DNA from: Escherichia coli
GTDB taxonomy: Bacteria; Pseudomonadota; Gammaproteobacteria; Enterobacterales; Enterobacteriaceae
Length of the DNA stretch: 64,000 nucleotides
NCBI RefSeq assembly: GCF_041248615.1
Contig: NZ_CP158426.1
Direction: 5' to 3' (one strand)
Position 1 is the first letter of the stretch. The number at the start of each line of letters is the position of its first letter. Below, piece after piece: positions 32,960 through 35,900 of the stretch. The position numbers were made by a program.

Positions 32960-35900
32960 GTTTACGCCGCATCCGGCGGTTATGCGCTGATGCCTGATGC
33001 GGCGCGGGCGCGTCTTATCATGCCTGGAAGTCTGCGCCCGAATCGTAGGCCGCCTCCGCTATATTAACTGGCATTGGCAAATTACTCGTCACTACCTTTA
33101 TTCATGTTTTTTTGGTCTTCATCCGGATAATGTTTTTTTAGATATTCCAGGACGTTTTTATTGACCTTGTGTTGCGTATACACCCACCCTTTCCAGTAAT
33201 CAGGCTGGTCCAGGTAAACTTCTGGCGGAATGGTGAAATCAGAAAGCGTTAACCATTCGGCTAACAGATCGGGGTTTCGTTTCTGGATTAACTGCAACAG
33301 CATAATCAGTGACATAGCTGAGGCAGGAGCCGTACTATCGCCACTTAAATATTTCCACACTGTTGACCGGTTCGAACGAAAAAGGATCGGTAGCAATGCC
33401 CGGTCCAGATTCATTTCATTAAAAATCTTCTCAAATTCATTCATTTAAATTTTCCTGCCTGGCGTAAACCTCTTAAAAATTGAGATTTATCAAAGAAACG
33501 CATTTTAGCACACATCAGGAACCGGTTCACGTTTAGTCCAGAAACAGAATTTATTTCGCTTATCAAAACAAGTCTTTACTCTTTTTTACATTGAAAGAGC
33601 ACAAAATGATTTTCGATTTTATTTATATAAGAAACATTTTTTGTTTCTTATTGGTTGTGTTTACGCTTACACCAGACAAAAATGCGCTTTACATCACACA
33701 AATGGCGGCGTAGATTTCGATTAAATTGCAACGCAGTTTATTTCTTAAAACAATATTATTTGTTTCTTATAGAAACATTAATGCGACTTATTTTGAACAA
33801 GAGAAAATGAATGAAAACTGTAAACGTAGCTTTACTGGCACTCATAATTTCAGCAACATCCAGCCCTGTTGTTTTAGCTGGTGATACCATTGAAGCGGCG
33901 GCAACAGAGCTTTCAGCCATTAACTCTGGCATGTCGCAATCGGAGATTGAGCAGAAGATTACCCGCTTTTTAGAACGCACAGACAACAGCCCCGCTGCGT
34001 ATACCTATTTGACTGAACATCACTACATCCCTTCTGAAACACCTGATACCACTCAGACTCCCACTGTCCAGACAGATCCTGACGCAGTACAAAAAACCGT
34101 TGCCGCTACAGGTGATGTACAGACAACCGCCCGTTATCAGAGCATGATCAACGCCCGACAGTCTGCGGTAACTGATGCCCAGCAAACGCAAATTACAGAG
34201 CAACAGGCGCAGATCGTAGCCACACAAAAAACGCTCGCCGCGACTGGAGATACGCAAAATACTGCGCATTATCAGGAGATGATTAATGCCAGACTGGCGG
34301 CTCAAAATGAGGCTAATCAGCGCACTACCACGGAACAAGGGCAGAAAATGAATGCACTGACAACCGATGTGGCAGCACAACAGCAAAAAGAAAGGGCTCA
34401 ATACGATAAACAAATGCAAAGTCTGGCGCAGAAGTCTGTCCAGGCACATGAGCAAATTGAAAGTCTGAGACAAGATTCCGCACAAACGCAGCAACAGTTA
34501 ACCAACACGCAAAAACGGGTCGCAGATAACAGCCAACAAATTAACACGCTCAATAACCATTTCGATTCTCTGAAAAACGAAGTTGAGGACAATCGTAAAG
34601 AAGCCAATGCGGGAACTGCATCTGCCATCGCTATCGCCTCACAACCACAGGTGAAAACCGGTGACTTGATGATGGTGTCAGCGGGAGCGGGAACGTACAA
34701 CGGTGAATCTGCGGTGTCTGTAGGAACATCTTTTAATGCCGGAACGCATACGGTACTTAAAGCAGGTATTTCTGCGGATACACAATCTGATTTCGGTGCG
34801 GGTGTCGGCGTGGGATATTCGTTCTAATTTTAACAGCAATTTCTTATTCGCAATTTTCCGTACATTATTTAAGGTTAACAATGATGAATAGCTCCATTAA
34901 ATCGTTTTCCCTGCTGGCGGTTATATTACTGGCTGGCTGTAGTTCACCCACTTCCCGCATCGCAGATTGCCAGGCGCAGGGCGTCAGCCATGACACCTGT
35001 TATCTCGCAGAACAACAGCGTCAGGCGGCTATTTTAAGTGCATCAGAAGCGCAGGCATTTAAAAATGCAGAAGCCGCACAACATGCCCAGGCCGCTAAAA
35101 AATCTATTTATAAAGGATTTGGCATGACCTTTAGAATGAGCAGTAAGAACTTTGCTTATCTCAATGATTCATTATGTGCAATTGATGAAGACAATAAAGA
35201 TGCCACTGTTTATCAGTCAGGTCTTTATAACGTCATTGTTTATCATCACACAGGAAAAGTCGCCTTAATGAAGGAAGGTCAATTTGTGGGTTATTTAAAA
35301 TGAAGGAGCAAAGGAAAATACCCCTGACGCATATTATGATTATCGGTGCGTTTATTTTTGCCTTCTTGCAAGTAGTATTATTAGCCTCCCTGGTTCACGC
35401 TGTGAATGTTAACAACGAAATCCAGGAAGGCTTATTTCAGTCGGGGCGCATTATGGTAGAAAGTTTGCAGCATATTCTTTCGGTGCAAACGGGGATTAAC
35501 TGATTTTCACCCCGCCCGATGATGACAGCAGCCGGAGAGATTTTCGATAATCGGGCAGTCGGCGCTGTCATCGCCAGGGCAGGCATTCGCCAGCGCCAAC
35601 AGCTGGTTGCGCATGGATTGCAGCTCCTCAATGTGCCGTTCGATCTCCGCTACCTTCTCCAGCGTGCGCCGTTTTACATCGGCACTGTGACGCTGCGGAT
35701 CGTTAAACAGATTCACCAGCTCGCCGCTCTCTTCCAGGTTAAAGCCCACCTGGCGCGCCTGGCGCAGTAAGGTCAGTTCGTTGAGATGCTGCTGCGTGTA
35801 GGTTCGATAACCATTTTCGCTGCGCATCGGCGGCGTCACCAGCCCCTTCTCTTCATAGAAGCGAATGGCTTTGCTGGTCAGGCCGGTAATTTTTGCTACA

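What the first reader, a model, noticed from the sequence alone, without database searches (positions are those of the whole stretch)
33629..33777. Two palindromes built from the same AGAAACA/TGTTTCT half-site in the divergent control region
Site A (33629..33649) is aAGAAACA-ttttt-TGTTTCTt and site B (33761..33777) is TGTTTCT-tat-AGAAACA, i.e. the same 7-bp half-site in inverted and everted arrangement. They lie in the AT-rich 366-bp spacer between the 120-aa ORF and the YadA-anchor gene, with site B about 35 bp upstream of the latter's start codon. This is a plausible operator pair for a dimeric regulator, possibly the divergent 120-aa protein.
Basis: seen in the sequence. Interest (0 to 1): 0.35.

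Follow-up and report, generated by a model that had tools for sequence, protein, structure and literature searches.

The report
Operator array controlling an adhesin operon
The two palindromes are real and belong to a conserved array of AGAAAC sites lying between a small helix-turn-helix regulator gene and a surface-adhesin operon of E. coli island OI-29; they are most likely that regulator's operators, though binding has not been tested.

Summary
Site A is longer than reported: ATAAGAAACA-N5-TGTTTCTTAT, 33627-33651. Five of the eight AGAAACA copies in the 64-kb window fall within 240 bp of this spacer. Two palindromes sharing one half-site arose in 2 of 5000 composition-matched simulations.

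Across 12 spacers, AGAAAC occurs 41 times on the adhesin strand against 2.7 expected, at conserved positions. These include the inferred transcription start of the regulator gene and the leader of the adhesin gene.

The conserved unit is the half-site, not the palindromes. The left arm of site B is lost in other E. coli lineages. Relatives arrange the half-sites as direct repeats 22 bp apart with an inverted copy between them. Distant homologues with altered recognition helices carry different repeats in the same geometry.

Best reading: operators of the divergent regulator (confidence about 0.6). The main rival is OmpR-type binding. An invertible switch, an RNA element and chance were rejected.

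Side finding: the published 'transcription factor GmrA' is the YadA-anchor protein.

The parts
33082..33444 (-). [not shown]
33492..33498 (+). Half-site AAGAAAC, immediately downstream of the -10 of the regulator gene's promoter and covering its inferred transcription start.
   Evidence: The position is conserved in all close loci and in Lelliottia L020.
33501..33509 (-). Inferred extended -10 promoter of the 120-aa gene (TGCTAAAAT on the - strand). The start site is inferred near 33494.
   Evidence: TGnTAnnAT is kept in every homologous spacer, with hexamer variants TAAAAT, TATAAT, TATCAT and TAGAAT. No start-site data are available.
33515..33520 (+). Degenerate half-site AGGAAC, 22 bp from the 33493 site. 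Together the two flank the inferred -10.
   Evidence: The column pattern wG.A.C is partly conserved.
33531..33557 (+). Composite GTTTA-N5-GAAAC-N7-ATTTC, with an invariant core cAGAAACa at 33539-33546.
   Evidence: Searches give the one-mismatch dyads. The core is invariant.
33575..33589 (-). GTAAA-N5-GTAAA, a perfect match to the published CpxR box consensus, lying between the two promoters.
   Evidence: The consensus GTAAA(N)4-8GTAAA is quoted in PMC9603713. TTTAC-N5-yTTAC is partly conserved across genera.
33627..33651 (.). Site A, ATAAGAAACA-N5-TGTTTCTTAT (core GAAAC-N7-GTTTC), centred about 84 bp upstream of the inferred adhesin start site.
   Evidence: GAAAC-N7-GTTTC is kept in Escherichia spp. 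and Symbiopectobacterium. L008 and L011 carry TAAAC variants. In relatives a third half-site GAAAy follows 22 bp after the first; in E. coli it has decayed to GGTTG. In L024 both arms are changed symmetrically, to AAGAACA-N5-TGTTCTT.
33688..33716 (+). Inferred sigma-70 promoter of the adhesin operon, TTTACA-17-TAGATT. The start site is inferred near 33723.
   Evidence: The promoter scan is. The block GCTTTACATCACA...GGCGTAnnTT is the most conserved part of the spacer.
33729..33733 (+). GCAAC, a decayed copy of a GAAAC half-site that sits at about +7 in other genera.
33761..33777 (.). Site B, TGTTTCT-TAT-AGAAACA (core GTTTC-N5-GAAAC), at about +39 to +55 in the adhesin leader and 33 bp before the ATG.
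   Evidence: The right arm AGAAAC is invariant in all loci of the first six-locus alignment. The left arm is variable.
33811..34827 (+). [not shown]
   Evidence: Pfam YadA_anchor, E 2.8e-12, 47 bits against a cutoff of 22.7. RefSeq annotates it as a YadA family autotransporter adhesin. The gmrA cloning primers match both ends of the ORF.
34881..35503 (+). [not shown]

Best explanation

Shown:
- The motif is strongly enriched and holds conserved positions across genera.
- The protein has an XRE/Cro HTH fold.
- Protein gene, spacer and adhesin gene travel together as one module.

Inferred:
- Dimers bind pseudo-dyads that have one strongly specified half (GAAAC) and a looser partner one helical turn away.
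- Neighbouring sites are phased about 22 bp apart (two turns), allowing cooperative binding. Phage P2 C repressor works this way.
- The site pair 33493/33515 flanks the -10 and covers the start site of the regulator's own extended -10 promoter. This would give autorepression.
- Sites A (about -84) and B (about +47) bracket the adhesin promoter. They would repress it by roadblock and/or looping.
- Activation from site A cannot be excluded.
For: (1) Enrichment. AGAAACA occurs 5 times in the spacer against 0.12 expected, with 0 of 3000 simulations reaching 5. Across 12 homologous spacers AGAAAC occurs 41 times on the + strand against 2.7 expected.

(2) Conserved positions. Positions are held in Pseudocitrobacter, Symbiopectobacterium, metagenomic loci and Lelliottia, down to 37% protein identity.

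(4) Synteny. The divergent pairing with a YadA-anchor or surface-protein gene, with a 300-380 bp spacer, recurs in at least five chromosomal contexts.

(5) Geometry. Direct repeats lie 22 bp apart in L007, L008, L009 and L021. GAAAC-N7-GTTTC and GTTTC-N5-GAAAC both recur.

(6) Co-variation. Homologues whose recognition helix is not 'NRST' lack GAAAC arrays but keep the geometry. L024 (helix PRNTIFNYL) has AGAACA twice, 22 bp apart, plus the palindrome AAGAACA-N5-TGTTCTT. L023 has CCAATGAA twice, 22 bp apart.

(7) Promoter overlap. One half-site abuts the conserved extended -10 of the regulator gene.

(8) Precedent. P2 C is an HTH dimer that binds 8-bp direct repeats 22 bp centre to centre flanking a -10 (PMC2995052).

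(9) Co-regulation. Published RNA-seq shows z0638, gmrA and z0640 switched off together on HeLa cells.
Against: - Start sites are inferred from conserved promoter elements only.
- The co-variation rests on three distant lineages that are not phylogenetically independent. One distant NRST-helix member (L025, 29% identity, short contig) shows no AGAAAC array next to its gene.
- The GAAAC core also fits the GXXAC core of OmpR sites.
- Sequence-level HTH matches are all below family thresholds.
- Sites A and B are 130 bp apart, which is not an integral number of helical turns.
Confidence: 0.6

Rival explanations
1. The GAAAC sites are binding sites for a host OmpR-family response regulator. OmpR itself is the obvious candidate, and CpxR could act at the GTAAA box. 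These would couple the adhesin operon to osmolarity, pH or envelope signals. Under this reading the 120-aa protein is not the binder.
For: - OmpR sites have a critical GXXAC core and are degenerate (PMC7867234 and PMC7315122).
- The ompC promoter carries TGAAACATCT twice, 21 bp apart. I recalled the sequence and verified it at 100% identity upstream of ompC.
- Published gmrA expression falls with raised osmolarity and off-neutral pH.
- A perfect CpxR-type box lies at 33575-33589.
Against: - OmpR binds head-to-tail, with a second AC 10 bp upstream of the core. Here positions -7/-6 are T and C (40 and 31 of 69 sites), not A and C. That indicates an inverted partner, GTTTC.
- Both arms of site A change symmetrically in L024 (GAAAC/GTTTC to GAAC/GTTC), which fits a symmetric dimer.
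- The repeats change sequence in lineages whose local HTH protein changes. From general knowledge, not tested here, OmpR is highly conserved in Enterobacterales.
- The motif travels with the module through unrelated chromosomal contexts.
Confidence: 0.15
2. The sites belong to another, unidentified host factor or nucleoid protein acting on AT-rich, horizontally acquired DNA. The palindromes are incidental arrangements of its sites.
Against: AGAAAC is a specific, G/C-containing word with strong strand bias (41 against 13) and fixed positions. It matches none of the nucleoid-protein or global-regulator consensus sequences I could recall (from memory, not tested). The motif changes together with the local protein.
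Confidence: 0.08
3. Site B acts at the RNA level, as a 7-bp hairpin in the adhesin mRNA leader that affects translation or stability.
For: Site B lies in the inferred 5' UTR and folds as a hairpin in the minimum-free-energy structure.
Against: The leader folds no better than shuffles (z = -0.14). There is no Rfam match. The left arm is not conserved, and where it is lost no compensating change appears in the right arm. The same motif occurs outside any inferred transcript and on both strands.
Confidence: 0.03
4. The inverted 10-mers ATAAGAAACA (33627-33636) and TGTTTCTTAT (33761-33770) flank the adhesin promoter and mark an invertible phase-variation switch of the fimS type.
For: The 10-bp inverted repeats bracket the -35 and -10 elements.
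Against: None of 1413 E. coli genomes carrying the locus has the 33637-33760 segment inverted. No recombinase gene is in the islet. The enclosed segment is only 124 bp. In other genera the repeats are mostly in direct orientation.
Confidence: 0.01
5. These are chance palindromes in AT-rich DNA.
For: About 14% of simulated spacers contain one palindrome with arms of at least 7 bp and at least 2 G/C per arm.
Against: Two palindromes sharing a half-site arose in 2 of 5000 simulations. Motif copy number and cross-genus conservation are far beyond chance.
Confidence: 0.02

Closest known systems
Phage P2 C immunity repressor and its O1/O2 operator
   Same: It is a small (99 aa) XRE-type HTH dimer. 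It recognises short non-palindromic repeats 22 bp centre to centre that flank a -10 element. One monomer reads the repeat and the other makes looser contacts (PMC2995052). Here, GAAAC direct repeats 22 bp apart recur, a strong half-site is paired with a degenerate partner 10 bp away, and the pair 33493/33515 flanks the inferred -10. P2 C appears among the Foldseek hits (rank 11).
   Different: There is no detectable sequence relationship, and the fold match is generic HTH. No phage homologue exists. Inverted copies are also present here. The controlled gene is an adhesin operon, not a lytic promoter.
Small autoregulatory XRE-HTH proteins: anti-CRISPR-associated Aca1/Aca2, restriction-modification (R-M) controller C-proteins, and HigA2/MqsA antitoxins
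   Different: No toxin, anti-CRISPR or R-M gene is adjacent. The sequence matches fall below family cutoffs. The partner gene is a trimeric-autotransporter-type protein.
OmpR boxes of ompC and ompF
   Same: They share the GXXAC core (GAAAC) and roughly 21-bp phasing of GAAACA repeats.
   Different: The partner half-site here is inverted (TC rather than AC at -7/-6). The motif co-varies with the local protein.
Promoter-bracketing operator pairs, such as gal OE/OI
   Same: From general knowledge, these are two operators placed upstream (about -60) and downstream (about +54) of a promoter that loop it out. Sites A and B sit at about -84 and +47.
   Different: Looping is not shown here. The 130-bp spacing is not an integral number of turns, and the two sites have opposite half-site arrangements.

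Membership tests
XRE/Cro-cI helix-turn-helix DNA-binding domain (the 120-aa protein) | Five-helix bundle with the HTH at helices 2-3 | tested here: met
   [not shown]
XRE/Cro-cI helix-turn-helix DNA-binding domain (the 120-aa protein) | Sequence match above a curated family threshold (Pfam HTH_3, HTH_19, MqsA_antitoxin or Xre-like-HTH) | tested here: not met
   The best match is MqsA_antitoxin, E 0.081 at 13.5 bits against a cutoff of 30. Across the family the best E-value is 0.0071, in 6 of 19 members. PDB HigA-2 scores E 0.14. NCBIfam gives no hit.
XRE/Cro-cI helix-turn-helix DNA-binding domain (the 120-aa protein) | Sequence-specific DNA binding | not testable with these tools
   This needs EMSA, footprinting or ChIP.
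Operator of a locally encoded dimeric repressor | Dyad-symmetric sites, over-represented beyond chance | tested here: met
Operator of a locally encoded dimeric repressor | Conservation of the whole dyad in orthologous regions | tested here: inconclusive
   The core dyad of site A is kept in Escherichia spp. and L005, with variants in L008 and L011, and is changed symmetrically in L024. The left arm of site B is lost in several lineages, while the GAAAC half is invariant.
Operator of a locally encoded dimeric repressor | Overlap with core promoter elements | tested here: inconclusive
   The site at 33492-33498 abuts the conserved extended -10, and site B lies in the leader. Both promoters and start sites are inferred only.
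P2 C-type direct-repeat operator | Direct repeats about 22 bp centre to centre, flanking a -10 | tested here: inconclusive
   The 22-bp spacing occurs 7 times in relatives and in L024 and L023. In the window the only such pair is 33493 with the degenerate 33515, flanking the inferred -10.
P2 C-type direct-repeat operator | Regulator homologous to P2 C | tested here: not met
   The similarity is generic HTH only (Foldseek E 1.9). There is no phage homologue.
OmpR box | GXXAC core | tested here: met
   GAAAC fits the core described in PMC7867234.
OmpR box | Tandem (direct) half-site with AC about 10 bp upstream | tested here: not met
   At positions -7/-6, T occurs in 40 of 69 sites and C in 31 of 69, with A in only 10 of 69 at -7.
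Invertible promoter switch (fimS-like) | Both orientations found among genomes; recombinase nearby | tested here: not met
   None of 1413 genomes is inverted. No recombinase gene is present.
Type II toxin-antitoxin operator (MqsA/HigA2-like) | Adjacent toxin gene co-transcribed with the HTH antitoxin | tested here: not met
   In most loci examined the neighbour is a YadA-anchor protein gene; in the others no Pfam family is on record.
CpxR box (33575-33589) | GTAAA-N4-8-GTAAA tandem repeat | tested here: met
   There is an exact GTAAA-AAAGA-GTAAA on the - strand. The consensus is quoted in PMC9603713. Binding is not testable here.
Trimeric autotransporter adhesin (the gene downstream of site B) | C-terminal YadA membrane anchor above the Pfam threshold, with an N-terminal signal sequence | tested here: met
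   PF03895 scores 47 bits against a cutoff of 22.7, at residues 279-338. The N-terminus MKTVNVALLALIISATSSPVVLAGD reads as a signal peptide; this is my reading and no predictor was run.

The most novel reading that the evidence does not exclude
Probability: 0.3. Interest if true: 0.6.

Novelty: new member of a known kind. Interest (0 to 1): 0.42.

Why it matters
OI-29 is present in about a quarter of complete E. coli genomes (1416 of 5426), including O157:H7, ExPEC and APEC. Its middle gene has entered the EHEC literature as a motility activator. Nothing is published on how the island itself is controlled, as far as searches show.

Identifying the operator array and the probable regulator gives a directly testable model for the on/off behaviour of the island. 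It also raises a concrete doubt about the assigned function of 'GmrA'.

More generally, it is a compact example of a regulator, operator array and adhesin moving as one module between genera, with operator sequence apparently co-evolving with the recognition helix.

Tried and rejected
- **Invertible switch.** I built the hypothetical inverted allele and searched 5426 genomes. None of the 1413 carriers has it.
- **RNA element.** The leader fold gives z = -0.14 and there is no Rfam hit.
- **Chance.** Rejected by simulation. A first, naive look-elsewhere test was dominated by A/T-only words and was uninformative. My first shuffle script timed out.
- **Cra and other recalled consensus sequences.** I compared Cra, PhoP, RcsB, EvgA, LexA and CRP with the motif from memory only. 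None fits the spacing or orientation. These comparisons were not tested with tools.
- **OmpR.** Considered seriously and kept as the main rival.
- **Toxin-antitoxin reading of the HTH protein.** No toxin neighbour was found.
- **Phage or plasmid origin.** There is no phage hit. The two 'plasmid' hits are 4.9-Mb records, i.e. chromosomes.
- **Wider locus searches.** I ran no further search on closer queries, because L020 and L021 already tested the 'NRST helix goes with AGAAAC' prediction.
- **Paralogous operator copies in E. coli.** None was found at the 60-nt level. A true motif scan of a whole genome was not possible with these tools.

Full report
**The observation.** The sequence is exactly as described. 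Site A is aAGAAACA-ttttt-TGTTTCTt at 33629-33649, and the perfect inverted repeat runs to 10-bp arms (ATAAGAAACA / TGTTTCTTAT, 33627-33651). Site B is TGTTTCT-tat-AGAAACA at 33761-33777. Both lie in the 366-bp, 31% G+C spacer between the start of a 120-aa ORF (33082-33444, - strand) and the ATG of a 338-aa ORF (33811, + strand).

AGAAACA occurs 8 times in the 64-kb window, and 5 of those copies lie in 33540-33777. In simulated spacers of the same first-order composition, the mean count was 0.12 and none of 3000 reached 5. After a look-elsewhere correction, any 7-mer with at least 2 G/C reached 5 copies in 13 of 5000 simulations. Two palindromes sharing one half-site arose in 2 of 5000.

**The locus.** The window is E. 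coli chromosome. An accessory islet lies between ybbJ and cueR. It holds the 120-aa hypothetical protein, a 'YadA family autotransporter adhesin', a 140-aa lipoprotein and a 67-aa protein. It is present in 1416 of 5426 complete genomes.

This islet is O-island OI-29 of O157:H7 (z0640, z0639, z0638). Primer sequences in the supplement of Yang et al. 2018 (PMC5826968) map z0640 to the 120-aa ORF. They map z0639, named 'gmrA', to the 338-aa YadA-anchor ORF.

**The 120-aa protein.** It has no family assignment. Only sub-threshold matches appear, to the HTH part of MqsA, to Xre-like-HTH and to HigA-2. An AlphaFold model built on 19 homologues is confident (pLDDT 87.7). It shows an N-terminal five-helix domain followed by further helices.

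The family is very small. It has 21 clusters at 90% identity and 19 representatives among 1.84 billion proteins. It occurs in 6 of the roughly 100,000 species genomes searched, all of them Enterobacterales. There is no phage or true plasmid copy.

**Synteny.** In every locus with enough flanking sequence, the gene sits divergent from a large ORF across a 300-380 bp spacer. Where Pfam hits are on record that neighbour is a YadA-anchor protein; in L005, L008 and L011 no family is recorded. This holds in at least five different chromosomal contexts. The regulator gene, spacer and adhesin gene therefore move as one module.

**Phylogenetic footprint.** Aligning the spacers gives the following conserved blocks:
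- (a) AAGAAAC at 33492-33498.
- (b) cAGAAAC at 33539-33545.
- (c) The site A region.
- (d) GCTTTACATCACA-N-GGCGTAGATT. This contains the only promoter-like site found by the scan, TTTACA-17-TAGATT at 33688-33716.
- (e) GAAAC at about 33729, which is GCAAC in E. coli.
- (f) AGAAAC at 33771-33776, the right arm of site B, which is invariant in the first six-locus alignment.

On the other strand, every spacer keeps an extended -10 element, TGnTAAAAT or a variant hexamer, at 33501-33509. This includes the distant members. From it I infer the regulator gene's promoter, with a start near 33494, inside block (a).

Across 12 spacers, AGAAAC occurs 41 times on the adhesin strand and 13 times on the other, against 2.7 expected per strand.

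**The conserved unit.** The conserved unit is the half-site, not the palindromes. The left arm of site B is CGTTGCT in an E. coli lineage that carries an intact, longer (about 594 aa) adhesin allele, and GTTGCT in E. whittamii. It is absent in most other genera. The core dyad of site A, GAAAC-N7-GTTTC, is better kept.

Around 69 GAAAC cores, the flanks show A at -1 and TTTC at -9 to -6. That indicates an inverted partner one helical turn away (GTTTC-N5-GAAAC). A weaker GTTTC signal appears at +12 to +16.

Direct repeats 22 bp apart recur in L007, L008, L009 and L021, and spacings of 44 and 46 bp also recur. Several relatives carry the full composite GAAAC-N7-GTTTC-N5-GAAAy.

The window's site A is the first two elements of such a composite; its third has decayed to GGTTG. 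Site B is the last two elements; its first has decayed. A mirror-image composite surrounds 33541, and these sites are the window's only exact or one-mismatch matches that cluster in one region.

**Link between motif and protein.** Members that keep the recognition-helix start N-R-S-T keep AGAAAC arrays, down to Lelliottia at 46% and 37% identity. Three distant members with altered helices lack the arrays but keep the geometry:
- L024 (helix PRNTIFNYL) has AGAACA twice, 22 bp apart, plus the palindrome AAGAACA-N5-TGTTCTT. This is site A with both arms changed symmetrically.
- L023 has CCAATGAA twice, 22 bp apart.
- L026 has TTTCTGC three times.

This is co-variation, but it rests on few, related lineages. 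One 29%-identical member on a short contig (L025) does not fit.

The pair 33493/33515 flanks the -10 of the regulator's own promoter and covers its start site, which would give autorepression. P2 C repressor uses the same layout: an HTH dimer, 8-bp direct repeats 22 bp centre to centre flanking a -10, and only one monomer reading the repeat (PMC2995052).

Around the adhesin promoter, site A is centred at about -84 and site B at about +47. Relatives have GAAAC at about +7, +29 and +51. This fits repression by roadblock and/or looping, though activation from site A is not excluded.

Published data agree with a shared switch. All three island genes drop to zero reads after 3 h on HeLa cells.

**Rivals.**
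- **OmpR.** Its sites have a GXXAC core. The ompC promoter, verified, repeats TGAAACATCT 21 bp apart. gmrA expression responds to osmolarity and pH. Against this, the partner half here is inverted rather than tandem, and the motif changes with the local protein. I give it 0.15.
- **Invertible switch.** Refuted: none of 1413 genomes is inverted.
- **RNA hairpin.** Unsupported.
- **Chance.** Refuted.

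Noticed in passing
[not shown]
   Followed up: partly
window 33575-33589 (- strand): There is a perfect GTAAA-N5-GTAAA here, the CpxR box consensus quoted in PMC9603713, lying between the two inferred promoters. It is partly conserved across genera as TTTAC-N5-yTTAC. The island genes are shut off after host-cell attachment, and a review states that attachment signals through NlpE-Cpx in EHEC. It could equally be an OmpR-type tandem site.
   Followed up: partly
window about 31480-33000: A two-ORF transposase element (176-aa HTH-type orfA at 31570-32100 and 240-aa integrase-type orfB at 32205-32927; by my reading an IS3-family element, possibly IS150, not tested) lies between ybbJ and the 3' end of the 120-aa gene. 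In the otherwise 100%-identical genome NZ_OW967178 this gap is 185 bp, against about 1620 bp here.
   Followed up: no
window 34881-35503: A 140-aa lipoprotein (weak alanine-zipper lipoprotein and 'secretion chaperone' hits) and a 67-aa hydrophobic protein follow the adhesin gene. Similar small ORFs follow it in several related loci. They may be biogenesis partners of the autotransporter, recalling the SadB lipoprotein of Salmonella SadA (from memory).
   Followed up: no
L013-L015 (E. coli EC31, GW-AmxH19, PapRG-06-5): The adhesin has a much longer allele with an internally repeated stalk. In L013 it is about 594 aa and starts MKTVKLSLLAVV... just after the spacer. RefSeq annotates the CDS as starting about 370-730 bp too late in these genomes.
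   Followed up: partly
window 33636-33642 (T-run inside site A): The spacer between GAAAC and GTTTC is a T-run whose length varies among Escherichia: N7 in the window and in O157, N8 in L012 and N6 in L010. This is a possible slipped-strand modulation of half-site spacing.
   Followed up: no
window 35911-39245 and beyond: Just past cueR lies a type I secretion system (HlyD-type adaptor and ABC permease/ATPase). In related genomes it is followed by a frameshifted giant 'BapA-related adhesin SiiEA' gene. Two different adhesin systems therefore flank cueR.
   Followed up: no
window 9359-9373: This is the second exact GTAAA-N5-GTAAA in the window. Its context was not examined.
   Followed up: no
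L010 (GCA_014857685.1): In this genome the whole neighbourhood is fragmented into short ORFs (adhesin, qmcA, ybbJ, fetA), with integrase-domain fragments next to the regulator gene. It looks like a genome undergoing pseudogenisation. The operator sites are still intact apart from a 1-nt shorter T-run.
   Followed up: no
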